Source: a virus (Duplodnaviria > Caudoviricetes). From it: 35,259 nucleotides of DNA. Below the pieces are notes generated by a model. It ran no database searches and was not told the origin of the DNA. It saw only the letters and a program-made list of their open reading frames with translations. How positions within the stretch are numbered: the first letter of the stretch is position 1; each line of letters starts with the position of its first letter. The DNA lies in the IMG/VR virus record IMGVR_UViG_3300010376_000088, positions 1 to 35,259 of that record. One strand, 5' to 3'. Below, piece after piece: positions 8,345-35,259 of the stretch. A program made the translations under genes and the position numbers.

Positions 8345-8665
8345 TCACACCTCCGTGTCGACTCCGACGAACGCGAGCACATGCGCGATCAGCTCGTCGT
8401 ACGCCTCTGGCTGGGTGGCGAGCGTGACCGCGGCCCGCTCGTCCCACGTCTCGATCGCCGTGCGGATCTCCTCCAGGTCCGGGCCGCCCAGCGAGAACGT
8501 CGGGTCGGGCAGCCCGAAGTCGAGCTGCTCGACCCGGAACCCCTGCGGGCAGACGAGGATCGCGTACACGCAGTCGGCGATCTCCTCGATCGAGTCCTGC
8601 TCGGTCACCGCCGCCTGCGGGTTCACGAACCGGAACGGCAGCGCGAAGTGCGGCACGTCCGTCAC
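8345..8665 (-). CDS. Baseplate wedge gp25/gpW-like protein (sheath initiator)
   Basis: HFALPFRF...ILVCPQGFRVEQLDFG...IETWDER pattern; synteny. Confidence 0.8.
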   Translation of the reverse strand: MTDVPHFALPFRFVNPQAAVTEQDSIEEIADCVYAILVCPQGFRVEQLDFGLPDPTFSLGGPDLEEIRTAIETWDERAAVTLATQPEAYDELIAHVLAFVGVDTEV

Positions 8666-8859
8666 TCGGCAGGCTCCTCGGCGGCCGCGACGACCGGCGG
8701 CGGCCCGGCGTAGCCGGAGCCGACCTGCGCCATCGTCACGTTCACGGTGTCGACGTTCTCGTCGAGGCCGAGCGCGCTCATCACGGCCTGGGCGGCCTCG
8801 CTGCCGGTCATCGAGAGCGTCTCGCTCTCGTCGTGCTGAATGTGCACGTTCACGTCCAT
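8662..8859 (-). CDS. Small hypothetical baseplate-region protein
   Basis: TGATG-coupled start [10 protein letters not shown]; 65 aa. Confidence 0.6.
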   Translation of the reverse strand: MDVNVHIQHDESETLSMTGSEAAQAVMSALGLDENVDTVNVTMAQVGSGYAGPPPVVAAAEEPAE

Positions 8860-9863
8860 CAGGGTCCTCCTGTCAGGTCGGCGTAGGTGGGCTGCAGCGG
8901 GATCGCGCGGGCGAACGCCGTCGACGGCCACGCTCCCGAGGCCTTCGGCCCCCACAGGCGGTCGGTCGCCAGGTCGAGGTAGATCGAGCCGTCGACGCCG
9001 ACGCCGCTCCCTGGTGCGCCCGTGCCGGAGAGGAACGTCGACGCGCCGGACGGGCCTTGCGGGCCGGTCGGGCCTGCCGGGCCGATCGGGCCTTGCGGGC
9101 CGGTCGCGCCGGTCGGGCCGGTCGCGCCGGTCAGGCCGGTCGCGCCGGTGTCGCCCTTCGCTCCCTGCGGCCCGGTCGCGCCGGTCGGGCCTGCCGGGCC
9201 GGTCGGCCCTGCGGGGCCGGGCACGGTCGAGTCGGCGCCGGGCGGCCCGGTCGCGCCGGTGTCGCCCTTCACGCCTTGCGGCCCTGCCGGGCCGGTTGCA
9301 CCTGTCGGGCCGGTCGCGCCGGTCAGGCCGGTGTCGCCCTTGTCGCCCTTCGGGCCGGTCGCGCCGGTCGGCCCGCTCGGGCCTGCCGGGCCGGTCGGGC
9401 CTGCGGGGCCGGGCACGGTCGAGTCGGCGCCGGGCGGCCCCGTGGCTCCGGTCGCGCCGGTGTCGCCCTTCGCGCCGGGCGGGCCGGTCGCTCCCGCAGC
9501 TCCGGGCAGGCCGGTCGGCCCGGGCGGCCCGGTCGGCCCCGCCGGACCTGTCGGCCCTGCTGGCCCGGTCGGCCCGGCGGGTCCTGGCGGCCCGGGCGCG
9601 CCGCTGCCGCTGACGCTCGCGGTCGTGATCACCCACGGCGTCCCGTCGTCCTCGGCGATCAGGAGCAGGCAATCGTCGCCCTCGTGGGGCAGGCCGGTCG
9701 CCGGCACCCAGGCGCACGGCCCCCACATGCGGGCCGACCCGTCGAAGGCGTCGACGACGACGAACAGGTCGTCCTCGGGGGAGCTGGGCGTGTTCGCGAT
9801 CGTCGCGGCGACGGCGGAGACCGGAACCTCGGGCTGCTCCAGGACGTCGACGATCTCTCTCAT
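8859..9863 (-). CDS. Spike-position (gpV-like N-terminus) protein with a collagen triple-helix region
   Basis: [10 protein letters not shown]...PWVI N-terminal motif, then a long Gly-X-Y run with two GADSTVPG interruptions; between hub and gp25-like gene. Confidence 0.8.
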
Positions 9864-11857
9864 GTGCCCGGCCAGTGTCTAGCGGCGAACTGCGCGCGGA
9901 CGTTGTACGGCCAGCCCGCCGCCGAGACGAAGCCCGGCCCGCCGCCCTTGTTCGCGCTGCTGGTCGAGAACACGTGCACACCGCTCGACGTCTTGAACAC
10001 GACGAAGACGTGGTCGGCGTTCGCGTAGATCGTCAGCTCGCGTCCCTTGCCGGCGTTGCCCCACGACTCGAAGCCGCCCTTGCCCGAGCCGGGTACGGAG
10101 CTCTTGCCGAGCTTGAACCCGAGCTCGCCGTCGCCGCCGCCGAGCACCGCCCCCGTCGAGCCGGAGCAGTCGAAGCCGAGCCCGGTGTACAGGTGGCCGG
10201 CCGGGCTGCGCTCGTGCGGGTTGTCGGCCTTGCCGCACACCTTGTGGCCGCCGCCCCACACGTACGGCCAGTTCTTGGCGTCCATGCGCAGCGCGTACGC
10301 GATCGCGTCCGCGACCCGCTTGTCGTTGACCCAGCCGAGCTTCGTCGAGTAGCTCGGCTGCGAGCCGGGCGCCGATCCCGGTGAGCCGGGCGGCGGGCCC
10401 GGCCGCGGCTGCGGCGTCGACGAGTCAGCCGAGTACGGCTCGAGGTACGGGCGCATCGGCCGGGTCAGCGTGATCGTCGCCGCCGGGTCGAACAGGCCAC
10501 GCTGCACGTCGCTCACGATCCAGCGGCCGTCCGCCGGGCCGCAATCCTGCAGCTCGACGATGCTGCCCGGCGCGAAGTCGTAGCGCGTCGTGCGCGCCGT
10601 GACCGTCGCGTCCGAGTGCACCTTGCCCTGGTCGACCTCGAAGTCGATGTTGTCGACGTTCGGGACGAACTCGCTCAGGATCGCGATCGGCATCTGCGTC
10701 AGCAGCGTGTCGTCGGACTCGAAGTAGATCGCGTTCTCGGAGGCGAAGCAGCGCCAGTCGACCTCCTTCGCCAGGCGCACGATCGCGTCCCAGCCCGTCT
10801 CCTTCTTCCCGGCGGTGCCGCCCATCGTGAACTGGAACTGCTTCCTCTTTCCGGTCGTCGGGTCGGTCGGCGTGACGGTCGGCCCCGGCCCCTGGTAGGC
10901 GGCGACCCACTTCATCGCCTCGGCCTGGTACTGGTCGTAGCGGCCGCGGTACTGCTTGGCCGGCATCTCGACGTGCCAGGCGACGGTGCCCGCCGACCAG
11001 TTCGGGTTCTTCGCCGCCAGCGCGATCGCGCCGCCGTACCCGGCGAACCCGCGGGTGAGGAAGACGCGGACGCAGGCGTCGACGTCGGTCTGGCTGATCC
11101 CGAGCCCCTTCGCGGTCGCCTCGGTCACCTGCAGCACGCCGCGCGACTTCGCCCCGTCGGCCTGCTCGGCGATCGACGAGTTGTGCATCGTCGACTCCAC
11201 GATGCAGGCCTCGATCAGGGCCAGCGTCGCGAGCTGCCCCGCCTTCTGCGCGGCCGCGGCGTCGAGCACCCGTGAGCCGAGCGCCTTCTGCGCCTTCGTC
11301 GCCGGCGCGCCCTTCACGGTCAGGTTCGCGTCCGGGCTGATCCCGTGCTTCGTGGTCGAGCGGGCGTTCGCCTGCGCCTGCGCCTGCGGCTGCGACTGCA
11401 CCGGCTGGCGCGTGTCGAGCTGCGGCGACACGAACGGGATCGGGGGCCCGTACTTGACCGAGCGCACGATCGAGAGCGCGAACTCGGCGCGCGTCATCTG
11501 CGAGCGCGGCGCCTTGCGCGGCCCCTTCACCTCGCGCAGCAGCGAGACGACGCGATCCTCGAACGTCAGCTGCAGCTGGTCGACCTGCTTCTGCACCTGC
11601 ACCAGCCGCCACCAGAGGCCGTCCAGGCGGAGGTCGATCGTCGAGCGGAACAGGCCGGAGCGGATCAGCTCGCGGTCGGGGTCCTCGAGCATCAGCGTCA
11701 GCGTCGACGCCTGCGTCATCGAGCGGTCGATCTGCGCGTCGACGACCCGCGACGCGACCCCGGTCCGCGACGTGTTCTTCAGCTTGCGGTTCACCTCGTC
11801 GAGGACGACGGCGGGCAGCTCGACGTCGGGCGCGACCTCGGGGATCTGGATGCTCAC
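9860..11857 (-). CDS. Baseplate hub (gpD/gp27-like) with lysozyme-like insert and C-terminal NlpC/P60 domain
   Basis: Hub-like N-terminus; IVES...SRGVLQV transglycosylase-like motif; PYVWGGG...GFDCSG...HVF. Confidence 0.8.
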
Positions 11858-26031: not shown

Positions 26032-26098
26032 CTCCTTCGGACTCGGATCACGGTGCACCGGCTGGTGCACCCGCCCCCGCCATCGCGGGCGGGAGCGG
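26032..26098 (-). promoter_or_regulatory. Conserved structured leader A (before parB)
   Basis: CCGC[hairpin]GCGG-GUGCACC-N4-GGUGCAC-CGU-GAUCCGAGUC-CGAAGGAG. Confidence 0.85.
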
Positions 26099-27689: not shown

Positions 27690-27755
27690 CTCCTTCGGAC
27701 GTTTGACTCGGATCGGAGCGGGTGCTCCCGCCCCCGGCCAGGTGGCCGGGAGCGG
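27690..27755 (-). promoter_or_regulatory. Conserved structured leader B
   Basis: CCGC[hairpin]GCGG-GAGC-ACCC-GCUC-C-GAUCCGAGUC-N7-CGAAGGAG. Confidence 0.85.
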
Positions 27756-27761
27756 CACGCA

Positions 27762-28340
27762 TCAGCTCGACGACTTCCAGGCTCGCGCGCCTTCCTCGTA
27801 GTACGGGTTCGGCAGCGTCTCGCCCACTCGCTTGCCGGACTCGTCGAGGAAGAACTGCTTGCCCTCCGCGCCCTTGCGGCCCATCCGCCGGCCGCGCGCC
27901 GTGAACATGTCGAGCGCGTGGTCCGGGATCTCCATCTCCATCCCGGCCCGGTCGCCCATCCAGAACGCGAACACCGCGCTCAGGACGAGGCCGCTCTTCT
28001 TCGCTCGCACGAGCACGATGACGGCGTGCGCGAGGAACAGCGGCATCGCGTCCTCGTTCTTCGCCTTCTTCGCCTCGAGCCAGTTGTCGTTCAGCACGCG
28101 GACGAGGCGCACCGCGTCGGGGTCGGCCAGGCCGACGTCCTCGGACGCCATGATCCGCAGCCGCTTCCAGACGTAGTTCCCGTACCCGGCCAGGTCGAGC
28201 TCCGACGCCCAGAACAGCGCCTCGCGTTCGTCGCCGCGCCGCACCGCCTTCTGCAACGCGGACGCGACCTCGCCGTTCAGGAACCCGCCCGGCGTGTGCA
28301 GCTCGCTGAACGGCACGATCCGCTTACGCGGTTCAGCCAT
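27762..28340 (-). CDS. RarA/MgsA C-terminal-domain protein lacking the AAA+ ATPase
   Basis: SALQKAVRRGD...ALFW...WKRLRIMASEDVGLADP...LAHAVI...AKKS...IPDHALD; no Walker A. Confidence 0.8.
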   Translation of the reverse strand: MAEPRKRIVPFSELHTPGGFLNGEVASALQKAVRRGDEREALFWASELDLAGYGNYVWKRLRIMASEDVGLADPDAVRLVRVLNDNWLEAKKAKNEDAMPLFLAHAVIVLVRAKKSGLVLSAVFAFWMGDRAGMEMEIPDHALDMFTARGRRMGRKGAEGKQFFLDESGKRVGETLPNPYYEEGARAWKSSS

Positions 28341-28683
28341 CACTCTCCTCTCTCAGGAGCCAGCGGCCGACCGCCAGCTCGTCCTCGATCAACAACTCGT
28401 CGGCCTCGGTGTCGTACTGCCCGACGTACACGAGCTTGTCCCGGTCGACGTGCATCTGCGCGATCGTCGGGTAGCGCTCGACCATCCGGCCCGCCGCCTG
28501 GCGCACCTTCGCGTGGTACGAGCCGAGCCCGGGCGCCCCGTACAGGTTGCCTTCGAAGTACACCCGCATCAGCCCCTCGTGCTGCGTCGACGGCTCGCCG
28601 ACGATGCCCGACCCGGGCTTGATCACGGTCATCGCGTGGTTCGGCTCCACGTCGTCCGCCGGCACGTACACGTTCACCTTCAC
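28333..28683 (-). CDS. Hypothetical protein
   Basis: GTG 28683 coupled to the ligase stop; SD AGGGAGGG. Confidence 0.7.
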   Translation of the reverse strand: MKVNVYVPADDVEPNHAMTVIKPGSGIVGEPSTQHEGLMRVYFEGNLYGAPGLGSYHAKVRQAAGRMVERYPTIAQMHVDRDKLVYVGQYDTEADELLIEDELAVGRWLLREESDG

Positions 28684-29582
28684 GGTTCCCTCCCTACGTC
28701 CTTCGGGTTCTTGTCGTCGCGTACCCGCTTCAGCGCCGGGTGCAGGAGGCGCTCGTCCTCCGTCCACCGCTGGTACGCGACCTGGACGACGACCTCGGGC
28801 GCGATCCACGTCACGTCACGCGGCGCGTCCTTCGGCGTCTCGGCGAGCGGCGAGCGCTCGACGTTCTGGAAGCGCGACTCGAACTCGCGGTCGAGCTTCT
28901 CGTCTTGCCCGGCCCGCCCCGCGTACACGAGGTTCGGGCCGTCGTAGTACGCGAGCACCAGCCCGCCGATCCGGCCCGTGCGCCCGTTCTTGCCGGGCGT
29001 CCAGCCGACGACGACGAACTCCTGCTCCTGGCGCACCTTCACCTTCAGCCACAGCTCGCCGCGGTAGCCCTCGATGTAGCGGCTGCCCTTGCGCTTCGCG
29101 ACGATGCCCTCCAGGCCGCGGTCGACCACCCACGCCTGCAGCGCCTCCCCGTCGTCGAACGACGGCGAGAACTGCAGCGCCGTGTCGCCGGACCCGGCGA
29201 CGATCGCCTCGGCGAGGCCTCGCCGCTGCTCCAGCGGGTACGGACGGCAGTCGACCTCGCCGAGCTCGAGCACGTCGAACACGACGAAGCACGCGGCCCG
29301 TGCGCTTCCGGCGCCGGCGGCAAGCCCGAACGTGTTCCCGGCCTCGTCCGGCGTCACGATCTCGCCGTCGATCACGCAGTCGGGCAGCTCGGCGAGCGCT
29401 CGCGCGATCGCCGGGAACTGCACCTTCCACTCCGTCTTCGACGAGCGCGACTGCATCGTCACCTCGCCGTCGACGATCGTCGCGGTGCAGCGAACGCCGT
29501 CCCACTTGATCTCGTACAGCCAGCCGTCGCCGACCGGCAGCTCGCCCGCCTTCGCGAGCATCGGCTTGACGGTGGCGGCCAT
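28680..29582 (-). CDS. ligD: ATP-dependent DNA ligase (LigD ligase-domain type)
   Basis: KPMLA, YEIKWDGVR, IDGEIV, VFDVL, LEGIVAKR...SRY, WLKVK, LLHP motifs; TGATG-coupled to ku. Confidence 0.92.
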   Translation of the reverse strand: MAATVKPMLAKAGELPVGDGWLYEIKWDGVRCTATIVDGEVTMQSRSSKTEWKVQFPAIARALAELPDCVIDGEIVTPDEAGNTFGLAAGAGSARAACFVVFDVLELGEVDCRPYPLEQRRGLAEAIVAGSGDTALQFSPSFDDGEALQAWVVDRGLEGIVAKRKGSRYIEGYRGELWLKVKVRQEQEFVVVGWTPGKNGRTGRIGGLVLAYYDGPNLVYAGRAGQDEKLDREFESRFQNVERSPLAETPKDAPRDVTWIAPEVVVQVAYQRWTEDERLLHPALKRVRDDKNPKDVGREP

Positions 29583-30484
29583 CAGGCCGCCACCTTCTTC
29601 GCCCGCTTCGCCGCGGGCTTCTTCGCCGCGGCCTTCTTCGGCTTCGACTCGGCGACCGACGCCTGCAGCGCGGCCATCAGGTCGATCACCGGCGCGGCCT
29701 CGGGCGCGGCCGGGGCGACGAACGTCTCGCCCTTGTCGGCGGCCCGGATCGCGTCGTGCATCAGCGGCGTCCAGGTGTCCTGGGCCTCCGACGCGTCGAA
29801 CACGCCCTCGAGCGCGGCCAGCAGCGGCTGCGCCGCCTCGATCATCCGGTCGTCGACGGCCGGGCGCGCGGCCGCGGCCACGCGGATCAGCTCGGCGTCC
29901 GAGTGGCGGATCTTCTGCTCGAAGCGGATCGTCTCCGCGACGAGCACGCCGAGCTCCTCGTGCCAGCGGACGGCGAGCGTCTCCGTCTGCTTGTACAGCA
30001 CGACGTCGACCAGCGCCGCCCTCGCGGGCCGCGACCCGTCGACCGCCGGGCGCAGGAGCGCGACCAGGAGGTCGAACGCCTGCTCGTGCCCGGCCTGCGG
30101 GTACACCATGAACGCCTTCTCGGTGTACGCCGAGTCGATCTCGCCGGCCTCGACGATCCGCGTGATCACGCCTTGCCCGTCCGACGCCTCGCTCAGCGCC
30201 TTCACCGTCTCCGGGTCGACGACGACCATCCGGCCGGCGTCGTCGGGGTGCGGGTACGCGGTCAGCTTCTCCGCGTTCGGGACGACGTGCTCGTCCGGCG
30301 TCCCCTGCGAGCACAGGCTCACGCTCGCGAGGGCCGGGCCGTGCGTCGGGCACATGCCCTTGCCCGGCACCGGCCGGGCGTTGTCGGTCAGCGACTTGAT
30401 CGCCACCGACACGTTCACTAGGCCGAACCCGATCGTCAGCTTCTTGCCGTGCGACGGGGTCGGCAGCGTGGCGTCCTTCGCCAT
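29582..30484 (-). CDS. ku: Ku DNA end-binding protein
   Basis: IGFGLVNVSV N-terminal motif, FD...DTW, VIDLMAALQASV, basic KKxAAK tail. Confidence 0.88.
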   Translation of the reverse strand: MAKDATLPTPSHGKKLTIGFGLVNVSVAIKSLTDNARPVPGKGMCPTHGPALASVSLCSQGTPDEHVVPNAEKLTAYPHPDDAGRMVVVDPETVKALSEASDGQGVITRIVEAGEIDSAYTEKAFMVYPQAGHEQAFDLLVALLRPAVDGSRPARAALVDVVLYKQTETLAVRWHEELGVLVAETIRFEQKIRHSDAELIRVAAAARPAVDDRMIEAAQPLLAALEGVFDASEAQDTWTPLMHDAIRAADKGETFVAPAAPEAAPVIDLMAALQASVAESKPKKAAAKKPAAKRAKKVAA

Positions 30485-30490
30485 CACTTC

Positions 30491-30554
30491 CTCCTTCGGT
30501 TGACTCGGATCGGAGCGAACGCTCCCGCCGCCTCGTCCTCACGGGCGAGGGCGG
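30491..30554 (-). promoter_or_regulatory. Conserved structured leader C (before ku)
   Basis: CCGC[hairpin, GUGA loop]GCGG-GAGC-GUUC-GCUC-C-GAUCCGAGUC-AAC-CGAAGGAG. Confidence 0.85.
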
Positions 30555-32432: not shown

Positions 32433-32521
32433 CTCCTTCGTGAACGGCCTCGCGGCCGCGTTGCGTTGACTCGGATCACGGAGCGGATGCTCCCGCACTG
32501 ATTCCGGCGGAATCAGCGCGG
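32433..32521 (-). promoter_or_regulatory. Conserved structured leader D (before the helicase); its first hairpin is palindrome copy 4 (32500-32514)
   Basis: CCGC-G-CUGAUUCC-GCC-GGAAUCAG-U-GCGG-GAGC-AUCC-GCUC-CGU-GAUCCGAGUCAA...GUUCACGAAGGAG. Confidence 0.85.
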
Positions 32522-32848: not shown

Positions 32849-32915
32849 CTCCTTCGTTCGACTCGGATCGTTCGGAGCAGGCGCTCCCGCCAGCCGCCCT
32901 CGCGGGCGGCGGCGG
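32849..32915 (-). promoter_or_regulatory. Conserved structured leader E
   Basis: CCGC[hairpin, GCGA loop]GCGG-GAGC-GCCU-GCUC-CGAAC-GAUCCGAGUC-GAA-CGAAGGAG. Confidence 0.85.
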
Positions 32916-32917
32916 CA

Positions 32918-33154
32918 TCACCAGCCAACGTCGACGAACAGGCGCACGAGCCAGCGCGCCTTCTTCAGCGCGCCCTCGCGCGTCGTCACCTGGCCGAGCA
33001 TCTCGCGGATCTGGTCGTCGTCGTACGCCTCGACGATCACGTCCCACCCACCGTCGTTGTAGTGGTCGAGCGCGTACGCCTTGACGTACTCGACCAGCTC
33101 GTCGGTCGTGTACTGCGGGTTCACGTACCCCTTCGTCGTGTCGGGCGCGGTCAT
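32918..33154 (-). CDS. Hypothetical protein
   Basis: TGATG-coupled start MTAPDTTKGY; 78 aa. Confidence 0.75.
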   Translation of the reverse strand: MTAPDTTKGYVNPQYTTDELVEYVKAYALDHYNDGGWDVIVEAYDDDQIREMLGQVTTREGALKKARWLVRLFVDVGW

Positions 33155-33435
33155 CAGACGAGCTCCTCGAGCTGCTCGCGCAGCTCGATCAGCGCGTCGA
33201 CGGCCGCGCGCTGCTCCTCGATCACGGAGCCGAGGTCGCGATCGCCGATCGGCAGCGTCTTCGCGAACTCGATCAGCGCGCTCAGCTCGCGCGCCTTCGT
33301 GCGGATCGTGTTGTTCGTCCGCGTCGCGACCACGTCGGTCGTCGACTCGAACGACAAGCCCTGGTCGGCGACGCCGCGGACGGCGACGCCCGCGCGGCTG
33401 GCCGCGTCGAGCATGTTCAGCGTGTTCGTGTGCAT
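33154..33435 (-). CDS. Hypothetical protein, first gene of the early arm
   Basis: 93 aa, SD GAAGGAG. Confidence 0.75.
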   Translation of the reverse strand: MHTNTLNMLDAASRAGVAVRGVADQGLSFESTTDVVATRTNNTIRTKARELSALIEFAKTLPIGDRDLGSVIEEQRAAVDALIELREQLEELV

Positions 33436-33449
33436 CTCTTTCTCCTTCG

Positions 33450-34086
33450 TTCGTTGTCTTCACGTACAACGGGCGGCCATTCGGCCGCCCGTGAATCGCC
33501 GCTACGGAATCGAACCGTCCACGGCGACAGGCGCGATCTACCACTCGCGCCTTGCTCTGATCGAATCTGCTCGCTGTCCCTCTCGCGTCCGTGCGTGCGA
33601 CGCGGTGTGTCCTGGCGAGCCACCCATGCGGATCGAGGGCGACCACGCCCTCGTACTCGGCGAGCGTCCGGCGCGACTCGATCGCGAACGCCTACTCCCT
33701 CTCGTCGTGTCCTACCGACGAGCCTTTCGACTCGCGGCGACGGCTCGTTCGTTACCGGCCGTCGTCGCTCACGCGATCGTCGTCGTGCCTTTCACTCGCT
33801 TTCACCCGCTCGATCTGGGTGCCGGGGACCGCTGACTGGCGCTGACGCCTAACCCGGTTCTCGTGCCCGTTGCCGATCGCGAAGTTCCTCCTCGCTTCCT
33901 TCCTCGCTGCCTGAGCTTGCGCTCTCCCACTTCCGGTCGTCTTACGAGCACCGGTCGGGCGGGCAGGCGTTTCACCGGGGGCTTTCGCAATCCCGGATCG
34001 GAAGCTGTGTTCTGGCTCCGCTGGGCCGCTCGGAGAAGACAGGGCGCGCTCGCTGGTGACTGTCGCGGTGTCTTTCTCTCTGGTCT
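33450..34086 (-). ncRNA. Putative large structured RNA / 5' leader of the early transcript
   Basis: No credible ORF; dense hairpins, GAAA and GCAA tetraloops, nested multibranch pairing, D-loop-like and T-loop-like hairpins. Confidence 0.65.
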
Positions 34087-34092
34087 ACTTTA

Positions 34093-34121
34093 AGCATAGC
34101 ACATAGGCGCTCACGGGCGAA
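34093..34121 (-). promoter_or_regulatory. Leftward early promoter
   Basis: TTCGCC-N17-TATGCT with extended TGn; a TGAGCnnnTATG half-site lies in the spacer. Confidence 0.55.
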
Positions 34122-34183
34122 GCGAAAACCCCTGCAAACGGGCACATTTGAGCCACTATGCTGTCGCCCGCGAGGGCAACGGC

Positions 34184-34212
34184 TTGGCCCGTCCGGCGCA
34201 CCCGGCTACACT
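34184..34212 (+). promoter_or_regulatory. Rightward SigA-like promoter
   Basis: TTGGCC-N17-TACACT; predicted start ~34218. Confidence 0.65.
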
Positions 34213-34217
34213 CCACC

Positions 34218-34346
34218 ATGCCGTCCGAGTCGGGTCGCTTTCTCTCTGGTCAGAGCTGGTTGCCTCCTCGGACGGCGCTGCTCGGGGCTCCGCCATCTCC
34301 TTCGTGAACCTTGACTCGGATCGCGTAGCGGCGGAGCCCGGGCAGC
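34218..34346 (+). ncRNA. Putative trans-acting antisense RNA with two stem-loops
   Basis: Stem 1 34220-34229/34267-34276 (10 bp); stem 2 34277-34294/34330-34346 (17 bp, one bulge, one U-G); loops complementary to early-transcript elements. Confidence 0.65.
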
Positions 34347-35173
34347 TCGAGCATCTGGCGATCGACCTGCCCGCCGGCACCGTGACCGTGCGCGAGGTCG
34401 GCGACGTCTGGCAGTCGGAGCAGACGTTCGACCTCGACGACCCGCGGGCCTTCGAGGCGATCTCGATCGCCTGGCTGCGCTGCGCCTGGGACGTCAAGCA
34501 CCAGTGGTCGTACAGCTGGTTCGGCCGCCCGATCATCCAGCTGCCCGAGGACATGTTCCGCGTCCAGGAGCTCGTCTGGCGGCTGCGCCCGGACGTCATC
34601 CTCGAGACGGGCGTCGCCCACGGCGGCTCGCTCGTCTTCTACGCCTCGCTCTGCAAGGCGCTCGGCCACGGCCGCGTCATCGGCGTCGAGCTGCCGCGCA
34701 GCCCGGACCTCGACCACCGCGACGCGATCATGCAGCACCCGCTCGCCGACTACATCACGCTCATCCACGGCGACTCGATCGCGGCCGACGTCGTCGACCG
34801 CGTCTACGACGACATCGGCGTCCCGCGCATAGGTGCTCAACCGCACGCGCCGCCGACCGTGCTGCTGCTGCTCGACTCCGACCACAGCCGCTCGCACGTC
34901 ATCTCCGAACTCGTCGCCTACGGCCCGCTCGTCACGCCGGGCTCGTACGCGATCGTGCAGGACGGCTTCATCCAGTCACTCGTCGCCCGCACGCACGGCC
35001 CACGCGCGAACCCGGACTGGGCGACGAACAATGCGCTCGTCGGCGCCCGCGCCTTCGTCGCCGCCAACGCCGACGACTGGGCGATCGGCCCGCCCGACCC
35101 GCCCTTCGACGAGGGCGTCGCGCCCCACTCGGCGACCCACTTCACCGGCGGCTGGCTGCGCCGCCTCCGCTGA
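34304..35173 (+). CDS. CmcI-family (cephalosporin hydroxylase / rhamnosyl O-methyltransferase-like) SAM-dependent methyltransferase; start uncertain
   Basis: YSWFGRPIIQLPEDM...QELVWRLRPDVILETGVAHGGSL...GDS...LDSDHSRSHV...ELVAYGPLVTPGSYAIVQD. Confidence 0.88.
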   Translation: MNLDSDRVAAEPGQLEHLAIDLPAGTVTVREVGDVWQSEQTFDLDDPRAFEAISIAWLRCAWDVKHQWSYSWFGRPIIQLPEDMFRVQELVWRLRPDVILETGVAHGGSLVFYASLCKALGHGRVIGVELPRSPDLDHRDAIMQHPLADYITLIHGDSIAADVVDRVYDDIGVPRIGAQPHAPPTVLLLLDSDHSRSHVISELVAYGPLVTPGSYAIVQDGFIQSLVARTHGPRANPDWATNNALVGARAFVAANADDWAIGPPDPPFDEGVAPHSATHFTGGWLRRLR

Positions 35174-35259
35174 CAGCGCACACGCCCGAGCGCTCGCCGG
35201 ACACACCGCTCGCCCGCGGTTTTTCCAGTTTTTTTCGCGGGGCGCGGGGTTGTGGGTCA

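What the first reader, a model, noticed from the sequence alone, without database searches (positions are those of the whole stretch)
33450..34086. ~640-nt ornate non-coding RNA heading the early operon
Seen: the longest gap in a gene-dense genome, purine-rich on the minus strand. It has nested pairing: CCGAUC/GAUCGG encloses CCGGG..GCGAAAGC..CCCGG, GCCU/AGGC, CCCGC/GUGGG and GAGC-GCAA-GCUC. Further hairpins are CUCGUCG/CGACGAG, CGAGGGCG/CGCCCUCG and ACGGGCGGCC-GAAU-GGCCGCCCGU. Large phage-associated ncRNAs (GOLLD, ROOL) are known, but I cannot assign this one to a family. It may be a new large RNA, an antiterminator or an attenuator.
Basis: partly seen in the sequence, partly recalled or inferred. 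Interest (0 to 1): 0.8.

Follow-up and report, generated by a model that had tools for sequence, protein, structure and literature searches.

The report
Phage leader RNA with antisense partner
An uncultured soil phage has, ahead of its early genes, a 640-base non-coding stretch whose predicted base-paired fold is kept by related phages, and beside it a predicted small RNA complementary both to the first bases of that stretch and to the ribosome sites of five early genes, so the two RNAs likely form an RNA-only off switch for the early genes.

Summary
Confirmed and extended. 33450-34086 (minus) is the non-coding 5' part of the early transcript of a high-GC soil phage, behind a conserved promoter; no Rfam match. 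Three syntenic homologues (410-670 nt) share 12 hand-aligned helices, one a likely pseudoknot: 210 of 213 cells pair, 24 of 60 columns show compensatory change; a fifth, distant phage has an unalignable leader in the same place. The 3' end is marked in all five: a tRNA-like D-loop/T-loop module (three, including the window), a canonical type II hammerhead (one), a terminator (one). A divergent promoter would make a ~130-nt two-hairpin RNA (34218-34346, plus): loop 1 is complementary to leader bases 2-15, loop 2 to a box plus Shine-Dalgarno repeated before five early genes. Guide and target change together between phages, and in the distant phage the cassette is inverted yet stays antisense. 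Best reading (0.5): antisense-controlled, 3'-processed leader switch, in the manner of P4 CI or P1 C4 RNA but with new architecture. Rivals: released RNA as sponge of the small RNA (0.22), independent GOLLD/ROOL-like RNA (0.12). No transcript was seen; only five sequences; no R-scape test.

The parts
34093..34121 (-). Early promoter (predicted): -35 TTCGCC, 17-nt spacer containing a conserved TGAGCRCCTATG element, TG-extended -10 TATGCT; start site about 34086
   Evidence: same -35/17 nt/TANNNT layout in G028, L320, L326
33450..34086 (-). Large structured non-coding leader RNA (637 nt), the finding itself
34072..34085 (-). 5' tail of the leader, 14 nt exactly complementary to loop 1 of the small RNA; its 3' part overlaps helix P1 (leader nt 9-54)
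33872..34002 (-). 5' multibranch domain closed by helix Pu; the 3' strand of Pu (33877-33872) can alternatively pair with 33832-33828 (helix PKalt)
   Evidence: hand-set registers in 4 phages
33822..33857 (-). Helix S with inner hairpin; compensatory change in 3 of 5 columns, 20 of 20 cells paired
33559..33821 (-). Central domain: helices A, B, C and helix X, which crosses A (predicted pseudoknot in W, G028, L320; nested in L326); a variable insert of about 25-170 nt lies inside B
33495..33552 (-). tRNA-like 3' module: hairpin with D-loop-like GUGGUAGA loop, then a 7-bp acceptor-like stem carrying a T-stem and UUCGAUU T-loop; candidate RNase P-type cut site at about 33529/33528 (inferred)
   Evidence: (8 of 19 pairs compensatory, 96% of cells paired)
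33469..33492 (-). Terminal 10-bp hairpin with a short U run, just before the first Shine-Dalgarno; possible weak terminator; not conserved in sequence
   Evidence: not flagged by the terminator scan
34207..34212 (+). -10 element TACACT of the divergent promoter (predicted); a TANNNT lies at this place in 4 of 4 close homologues
34218..34346 (+). Predicted two-hairpin antisense RNA. Hairpin 1 (34220-34277): loop 34238-34251 complementary to the leader 5' tail. Hairpin 2 (34278-34346): loop 34297-34322 complementary to the box plus Shine-Dalgarno; overlaps the start of the CmcI-like gene
   Evidence: (z -4.67)
32860..32869 (-). Start-associated box GATCCGAGTC before an early gene (target 1)
32468..32477 (-). 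Box before the AAA_25 helicase-like gene (target 2)
30502..30511 (-). Box before the Ku gene (target 3)
27705..27714 (-). Box before a small early gene (target 4)
26040..26049 (-). Box before the ParB-domain gene (target 5)
33154..33435 (-). First early ORF (93 aa, no Pfam match, no relative found in viral contigs); it has a Shine-Dalgarno but no box
34304..35173 (+). CmcI-like methyltransferase gene (Pfam PF04989), phage-borne, downstream of and overlapping the antisense RNA; GTG start inferred

Best explanation
The 637-nt stretch is a non-coding, predicted highly folded 5' leader of the phage's early transcript that likely serves as the target half of an RNA-only off switch: a predicted 130-nt RNA from the neighbouring divergent promoter would grip the leader's first bases with one loop and cover the ribosome sites of five early genes with the other. 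Shown in sequence: promoter-like elements, non-coding character, covarying helices, exact complementarity of both loops to their own phage's targets, and a 3'-end-defining element in every lineage. Inferred: (1) the early promoter fires and the leader folds; (2) its 3' end is cut or terminated just before the first gene (tRNA-like module, likely read by RNase P, in the window, G028 and L320; hammerhead in L326; terminator in L324); (3) loop 1 of the small RNA pairs with the nascent 5' tail next to helix P1 and shifts the leader between mutually exclusive helices (Pu against PKalt), so that the 3' element stops or destabilises the downstream message; (4) loop 2 blocks translation at the boxed starts (helicase, Ku, ParB and two small genes). 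Whether this acts as lysogenic immunity or as a timer in lytic growth is open; co-transcription with a probable DNA-modification operon points to the timer.
For: Leader plus small RNA are present in 5 of 5 members of this helicase family with enough upstream DNA (window, G028, L320, L326, L324; four further close contigs among the 80 loci are too short upstream). Leader helices: 210 of 213 cells paired, cross-phage pairing 436 of 558, 24 of 60 columns with double change, 0 of 5000 column shuffles as high, G-U cells 9 against A-C cells 1 on the minus strand. 3' module on a MAFFT alignment: 8 of 19 pairs compensatory, 1 of 500 shuffles as high, slid controls 38-46% paired. Guide and 5' tail match within each phage (14, 10+, 13, 17 nt exact) while differing between phages; a 14-nt match was reached by 1 of 2000 random 18-mers. 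The consensus fold of the small RNA puts the complement of the leader's first bases in the apical loop; 11 of 44 predicted pairs show double change. The extra box copy has no usable start behind it on its own strand (start codon 0-1 nt from the Shine-Dalgarno in 4 of 4). In L324 the cassette is inverted relative to the early operon, stands free of CmcI, has its own -10 and terminator, and is again complementary to that phage's different 5' tail and different box; a model built from the other four ranks it first in L324 (E 0.003, next 0.052). L326 has a hammerhead with a complete catalytic core where the others have the tRNA-like module (1 pattern hit, 0 in 1.3 million nt of other phage DNA). 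Precedent: P4 CI RNA causes premature termination by pairing with two sites (PMC4825925, passage); CI and C4 RNAs are RNase P substrates (PMC5499578, passage); a hammerhead precedes the first ORF of an early halovirus transcript (PMC3088659, passage).
Against: No transcript, start site, cleavage or pairing was observed. Only four alignable leaders; the helix registers were set by eye, so the paired fraction is inflated by construction, and MAFFT does not align the window's core with the others. Helices A, B, C have probability 0.89-0.98 with a 350-nt span limit but 0.10 or less without it, X 0.00. Energy models separate cognate from non-cognate pairs poorly: cognate best in 3 of 4 duplexes and 2 of 4 co-folds. 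Box duplexes (-36 to -46 kcal/mol) only reach about the top 1-2% of background (median -22, first percentile -39). Blocking the 5' tail in silico gives no consistent switch (base-pair distance 12-188). The small-RNA region folds as well on the other strand (z -5.44). The L324 small RNA was missed with default filters and its leader cannot be aligned with the others. The hammerhead scores below Rfam's gathering cut-off (28.4 against 37 bits). L326 lacks the tRNA-like module (no hit), and the acceptor-like stem has no CCA. G028 encodes an XRE-type HTH protein, so a protein repressor is not excluded. 400-670 nt of conserved structure is more than a simple antisense target needs.
Confidence: 0.5

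Rival explanations
1. The leader is cut off as a stable, abundant RNA that soaks up the small antisense RNA through its 5' tail: an RNA antirepressor that frees the boxed early genes and commits the phage to lysis.
For: Three different 3'-end-defining elements occupy the same place, as expected if the upstream RNA itself is the product; the 5' tail matches loop 1 while the repressing loop 2 matches the genes; it would be the first RNA made from the early promoter.
Against: A sponge needs little more than the 14-17-nt tail, and only one copy of the site is present; no expression data; terminator, hammerhead and RNase P site are equally usable as off signals for the downstream message.
Confidence: 0.22
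2. The RNA is an independent large structural RNA in the manner of GOLLD or ROOL (for instance an oligomeric scaffold or a decoy for a host factor), and the small RNA only controls its level.
For: Size 410-670 nt, conserved pseudoknot-type core with variable inserts, GAAA 10.8 per kb against 0.6 in the genome, defined 3' ends; GOLLD and ROOL are phage RNAs of 650-830 nt with variable linkers that form cages (PMC12286853, parts 1-2 of 9).
Against: No match to any Rfam model at E 10 or E 1; no tRNA gene nearby; it travels with one early-gene regulatory module and was not found in the other capsid relatives examined; fast sequence turnover.
Confidence: 0.12
3. The leader is a ColE1 RNA II-like replication primer precursor and the small RNA its RNA I-like inhibitor.
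For: Similar sizes and 5'-end targeting (RNA II about 550 nt, RNA I about 110 nt; sizes recalled); RNA-based origins exist in actinophage prophages (PMC7157519, passages); the phage helicase lacks the Prim-Pol domain seen in distant relatives.
Against: A hammerhead leaves a 2',3'-cyclic phosphate that cannot prime (established chemistry); the window and G028 encode integrases; no GC-skew inversion at the locus; complementarity is short and from a separate locus, not overlapping.
Confidence: 0.07
4. The repeats are DNA sites for a phage protein (operators or stoperators); the gap is a control region whose hairpins are incidental.
For: Asymmetric, oriented repeats are known as stoperators in cluster A mycobacteriophages (search listing and abstract start); G028 has an HTH_3 protein; local folding is not exceptional; inverted TGAGC/GCTCA elements flank the promoter.
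Against: Box to Shine-Dalgarno spacing varies from 0 to about 26 nt; the extra copies lie in loops of covarying hairpins; G-U bias picks a strand; inversion in L324 keeps the antisense sense; hammerhead and T-loop are RNA-level features.
Confidence: 0.06

Closest known systems
P4 CI RNA with seqA/seqC, and P1/P7 C4 antisense RNA
   Same: Small phage RNA with two short guide segments that pair with a leader or ribosome site and shut off lytic functions; RNase P processing in the system (PMC4825925, PMC5499578, PMC8198154; passages).
   Different: CI and C4 are cut from the very transcript they control; here the small RNA has its own promoter elsewhere, two hairpins with separate jobs, five to seven gene targets, and the target leader is a 410-670-nt covarying RNA. 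No Rfam match.
GOLLD and ROOL large phage RNAs
   Same: Phage-borne, hundreds of bases, many helices, predicted pseudoknots, variable inserts.
   Different: No model match, no tRNA island, sits as leader of the early operon, has a cognate antisense RNA; oligomer formation untested.
Start-associated sequences (SAS/ESAS) of cluster K mycobacteriophages
   Same: Asymmetric repeat just before starts of non-structural genes, about half with an upstream inverted repeat, and a single copy on the other strand (PMC3203893, passages); role called unclear in 2024 and 2025 (PMC11373665, PMC12699233; passages).
   Different: Different sequence; here the odd copy lies in the loop of a two-hairpin RNA that also targets a long leader.
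Bacterial tRNA mimics (YrlA Y RNA, skipping-rope, DUF2693-FD, salivarius-1)
   Same: [quoted passage not shown]
   Different: Here the module is the last 60 nt of a long leader, the D-like hairpin lies outside and 5' of the acceptor-like stem, it is replaced by a hammerhead in L326, and no Ro60 gene was identified among the proteins scanned.
ColE1 RNA II / RNA I
   Same: Long folded RNA whose 5' end is bound by a short multi-hairpin antisense RNA that redirects folding (PMC7157519 passage for the primer role; folding detail recalled).
   Different: RNA I overlaps RNA II and is fully complementary; RNA II primes replication; here there is no origin evidence and a second guide for ribosome sites.
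Type II hammerhead before the first early ORF of haloviruses HF1/HF2
   Same: Self-cleaving ribozyme just before the first ORF of an early polycistronic transcript (PMC3088659, passage), as in L326.
   Different: The window itself has no hammerhead core; no long ornate leader with antisense partner is described in the passages seen.

Membership tests
GOLLD RNA | Match to the Rfam model, with its conserved 3' domain | tested here: not met
   No hit at gathering score or at E up to 10 in 33300-34300, in G028, or at E up to 1 in L320, L324, L326
GOLLD RNA | Often beside tRNA islands | tested here: not met
   0 tRNA or tmRNA genes in the window
ROOL RNA | Match to the Rfam model | tested here: not met
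GOLLD/ROOL-like large ornate RNA (works-like) | Several hundred nt, many covarying helices, pseudoknots, variable linker | tested here: met
   (hand alignment, 4 sequences)
GOLLD/ROOL-like large ornate RNA (works-like) | Abundant discrete transcript forming an RNA-only oligomer | not testable with these tools
   needs RNA data and cryo-EM or mass photometry
P4 CI / P1 C4 antisense systems | Match to Rfam C4-type models | tested here: not met
   one search covered the small RNA only up to 34300
P4 CI / P1 C4 antisense systems | Two short guides complementary to leader and ribosome-site targets, phage-specific | tested here: met
P4 CI / P1 C4 antisense systems | Small RNA processed out of the same transcript it controls | tested here: not met
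   separate predicted promoter, divergent in four phages and 1 kb upstream in L324
P4 CI / P1 C4 antisense systems | Confers immunity by premature termination or translational block | not testable with these tools
   uncultured phage, host unknown
tRNA | Cloverleaf with anticodon arm and CCA end | tested here: not met
   ARAGORN 0 genes; stem is followed by UC/UUC, no anticodon arm
RNase P minihelix substrate | About 12 stacked pairs from T-loop to cut site | tested here: inconclusive
   7 + 4 pairs with a 3x2 internal loop in 3 of 3, no CCA; cleavage untested
Y RNA and skipping-rope-type tRNA mimics | Match to Rfam model; D/T-loop elbow | tested here: not met
   no model match; D-like and T loops present in 2-3 of 5, elbow contact not testable
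Hammerhead ribozyme type II | CUGANGA and GAAA cores, NUH triplet, three stems | tested here: not met
   absent from the window; met in homologue L326 4662-4717, though 28.4 bits is under the gathering score of 37
Cluster K SAS | 13-bp consensus GGGATAGGAGCCC before starts | tested here: not met
   the repeat found before early starts here is a different 10-mer plus Shine-Dalgarno; works-like features (oriented, start-associated, one odd copy) are met
ColE1 RNA II primer | Forms a hybrid at an origin and yields a 3'-OH primer; overlapping RNA I | tested here: inconclusive
   no overlap of the two RNAs, no skew inversion; priming not testable
HK022 put-type RNA antiterminator | Leader RNA that modifies RNA polymerase for read-through | not testable with these tools
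   only search listings seen; no Rfam match
c-di-GMP-II-GCG riboswitch | Model match with kink-turn and pseudoknot | tested here: not met
   weak hit in G028 only (26.9 bits against 47.9, central part unmatched); none in the window

The most novel reading that the evidence does not exclude
These phages run their early-gene decision on two RNAs alone: a two-armed guide RNA that represses a whole set of early genes, and a 400-670-nt pseudoknotted RNA that frees itself from the message by interchangeable means (tRNA mimicry, hammerhead self-cleavage or termination) and acts as its antirepressor, making a bistable RNA-only switch and giving start-associated sequences a defined partner.
Probability: 0.22. 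Interest if true: 0.87.

Novelty: new variant of a known kind. Interest (0 to 1): 0.72.

Why it matters
It adds a large structured phage RNA family outside Rfam and, unlike GOLLD and ROOL, comes with a concrete partner and testable mechanism. The swap of a tRNA-like module for a hammerhead or a terminator at the same position is a natural experiment showing that the 3' end matters. The two-loop guide RNA offers a mechanism for start-associated repeats, which papers from 2011, 2024 and 2025 call unexplained in cluster K mycobacteriophages. All key steps can be tested in vitro with synthetic RNA or in reporter strains without culturing the phage. The anti-ribosome-site hairpin by itself has been noted in other phages by earlier agents of this scan, so the new element is its coupling to the 5' end of an ornate, 3'-processed leader.

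Tried and rejected
Rfam: no family for the window at gathering or E up to 10. BLAST of the leader against 50,697 phage records: two 35-nt chance hits; against 36 capsid relatives: best E 0.001 over 34 nt, none meaningful, and G028 was recognised only by synteny. T-loop 16-mer scan of viral contigs: 120 loci, none a homologue. 3'-module pattern: only G028. Box pattern: 65 loci, repeated copies only in G028. First-ORF and CmcI queries found no viral relatives; 24 loci of the 79-aa ORF family gave only G028. Genome collection: 18 loci, best 38% identity, no close prophage, so the host is unknown; high-GC soil actinobacterium is an inference. Models of the 3' module and of the small RNA over 94 sources (1.12 million nt) found only their training sequences. 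Repeat screen of 17 other phage records found no comparable box. Sequencing runs: no RNA holder listed; DNA contigs of two other studies match parts of the region with no differing letter; laying on G028 gave no new variants. Considered by eye and dropped for lack of the catalytic registers (recalled consensus, not a tool test): RNase P RNA, group I and II intron cores, HDV-like, glmS, SRP, tmRNA. My first reading of CmcI as a flanking host gene was wrong (syntenic in three phages). One search's helix table had four off-register entries and was redone. Cluster K side test: guide-target covariation was not seen. Literature searches that showed no description of this RNA or of an antisense partner for start-associated sequences; the library lacks most subscription papers, and no supplements were read.

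Full report
Setting. The window is a whole IMG/VR virus record of 35,259 nt, estimated 80% complete, about 70% GC. Pfam marks terminase, capsid, amidase, integrase, Ku, MgsA_C, ParB, HNH and an AAA_25 helicase-like gene on the minus strand, and a CmcI-like methyltransferase on plus. The finding lies in the 868-nt gap between the first early ORF and CmcI, the largest gap in the record.

Observation. The stretch is non-coding by codon bias and by lack of a conserved frame. It folds better than shuffles as a whole (z -3.1 and -4.0) but not in 150-nt windows, so folding energy alone is weak evidence. Rfam and ARAGORN give nothing. A TG-extended -10 lies 7 nt before 34086, with a -35-like hexamer 17 nt upstream; the consensus scan did not list it.

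Homologues. BLAST found none. Mapping window proteins onto 18 related records showed one complete phage, G028, with the same gene order around the gap. A helicase alignment searched against metagenomes returned 80 loci, nine at 60% identity or more including the window; four of the eight others have enough upstream DNA: G028, L320, L326, L324. G028, L320 and L326 carry the same promoter layout followed by 410-670 non-coding bases with shared motifs. L324, more distant, has a leader of about 650 nt that I could not align.

Structure of the leader. With registers set by eye from flanking conserved motifs, 12 helices are shared by three or four phages: 210 of 213 cells pair, strands swapped between phages pair in 436 of 558, 24 of 60 columns change on both sides, and G-U outnumbers A-C 9 to 1 on the minus strand. 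This count is favoured by construction, and MAFFT misplaces the window's core. Helix X crosses helix A in three phages, a predicted pseudoknot; one strand can pair either upstream (Pu, 18 of 20 cells) or downstream (PKalt, 19 of 20), which suggests alternative folds. The single-sequence ensemble supports A, B and C only with a span limit. The 3' module was counted on an automatic alignment: a hairpin with a D-loop-like loop, then a 7-bp stem bearing a T-stem and T-loop, 8 of 19 pairs compensatory, 1 of 500 shuffles as high. L326 lacks it and has instead a type II hammerhead with a full core, ending just before the Shine-Dalgarno (under the gathering score; 0 pattern hits in 1.3 million nt of control DNA). 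L324 ends in an 8-bp hairpin with four U. So each lineage has some way to fix the 3' end.

The partner. A 10-nt box, usually after a small hairpin and before the Shine-Dalgarno, precedes five early genes in the window and five in G028. One more copy lies at the CmcI start with no usable start codon on its own strand. On the other strand a TANNNT lies at the same distance in 4 of 4 phages, before two hairpins. The first (10-bp stem, 2 compensatory pairs) shows in its loop the complement of that phage's own leader start (14 nt exact in the window). The second (14-bp stem) shows the complement of box plus Shine-Dalgarno. The RNA folds with z -4.67, and about as well on the opposite strand. Energy models only partly favour cognate pairs. 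The best test is L324: the cassette is inverted relative to the early operon, free of CmcI, has its own extended -10 and terminator, and its transcript is again complementary to a different 5' tail and a different box, found three times before starts. A covariance model from the four close small RNAs ranks it first in L324 with filters off (E 0.003) and misses it with default filters.

Mechanism. Shown: sequence features, covariation, complementarity. Inferred: transcription, folding, cleavage or termination at the 3' end, pairing, repression. I commit to an antisense-controlled leader switch that turns the early genes off (0.5), by analogy with P4 CI RNA, which ends transcription early by pairing at two sites (PMC4825925, passage), and with RNase P action on hairpin-like phage RNAs (PMC5499578, passage). 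The genes following the small RNA look like a DNA-modification cassette (CmcI, a weak TAGT glycosyltransferase match below cut-off in L326; epimerase and aminotransferase nearby in G028), which suggests lytic timing; integrases leave immunity open, and G028 has an HTH_3 protein. Rivals: released RNA as sponge (0.22), independent GOLLD/ROOL-like RNA (0.12), ColE1-like primer (0.07), DNA operators (0.06).

Comparison. Not GOLLD, ROOL, C4, Y RNA or a listed tRNA mimic by Rfam. It resembles GOLLD and ROOL in size and complexity (PMC12286853, parts 1-2 of 9 read) and works, by inference, like CI or C4. The box behaves like cluster K start-associated sequences, which also have one copy on the other strand (PMC3203893, passages) and remain unexplained (PMC11373665, passages and section 19; PMC12699233, passages). 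In Anaya that copy lies in a hairpin loop of a conserved gap where late transcription starts in Adephagia, but in two of seven phages the loop has drifted while the repeat has not and in a third it is unrecognisable, so that side lead is mixed. Ten literature searches showed no description of this RNA; subscription papers and supplements were not seen. Earlier agents of this scan noted anti-ribosome-site hairpins in other phages (unchecked notes, not evidence); none matched this sequence or the leader-plus-hammerhead combination.

Verdict. Real, structured and outside known families; a new variant of antisense control of phage lytic genes with an unusually large target. Interest 0.72, limited by five sequences, hand alignment and no RNA data.

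Noticed in passing
L417:31690-32060 (Mycobacterium phage Anaya, gene 96-97 gap): The single inverted SAS copy is the loop of a hairpin in a strongly folded (z -6.35), conserved (182 records) gap after a TAGACT -10; consensus fold in 7 phages has 10 of 38 pairs with double change. Loop matches the SAS in 4 of 7, has drifted in Amgine and Krueger while their SAS has not.
   Followed up: partly
L326:4662-4717: Type II hammerhead with a complete catalytic core right before the first early Shine-Dalgarno; below Rfam's gathering score, so missed by standard annotation.
   Followed up: yes
L324:5814-6463: About 650-nt leader rich in GUGUGUGAG repeats, the same motif that precedes start codons of its first early genes (6453, 6889, 7194), and in UGARA loops (10.8 per kb); could be a sponge for a translation regulator.
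   Followed up: partly
window 34113-34102 (minus), 34153-34149 and about 34839-34828: TGAGCRCCTATG in the promoter spacer of 4 of 4 phages, an inverted GCTCA upstream, and another copy inside the CmcI gene of the window: candidate operator for a DNA-binding protein.
   Followed up: no
window 34157-34162 (plus): A second TATGCT pointing away from the early promoter, also at the same place in L320: possible further divergent promoter.
   Followed up: no
window 34218-34307 (plus): The small RNA starts with ATG or GTG at the predicted start site in 4 of 4; the short leaderless frame overlaps the CmcI start (fused in frame in L326) but its peptide is not conserved: possible translational coupling for a gene without a Shine-Dalgarno.
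   Followed up: partly
window 35200-35259; L320:6340-6400; L324:5640-5690: Shared run of the type GCG-A6-7-C..AAAA in non-coding DNA, near an HNH gene in L320: candidate packaging (cos) site; the early promoter lies about 150 nt from it in L320 and L324.
   Followed up: no
G028 39171-43654 and 572-1525; L326:60-3870; L320:140-5900: Cassette of NAD epimerase, DegT aminotransferase, TAGT-like glycosyltransferase, ParB-like protein and CmcI methyltransferase: probable sugar modification of phage DNA.
   Followed up: partly
window 29582-30487 and 27762-28343 (minus): Phage-borne Ku and stand-alone MgsA C-terminal domain genes in the early operon, also in G028, L322, L324.
   Followed up: no
window 8662-9981 (GC 0.84 at 9001-9600): Low-complexity, very GC-rich stretch among tail genes, probably a collagen-like repeat protein.
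   Followed up: no
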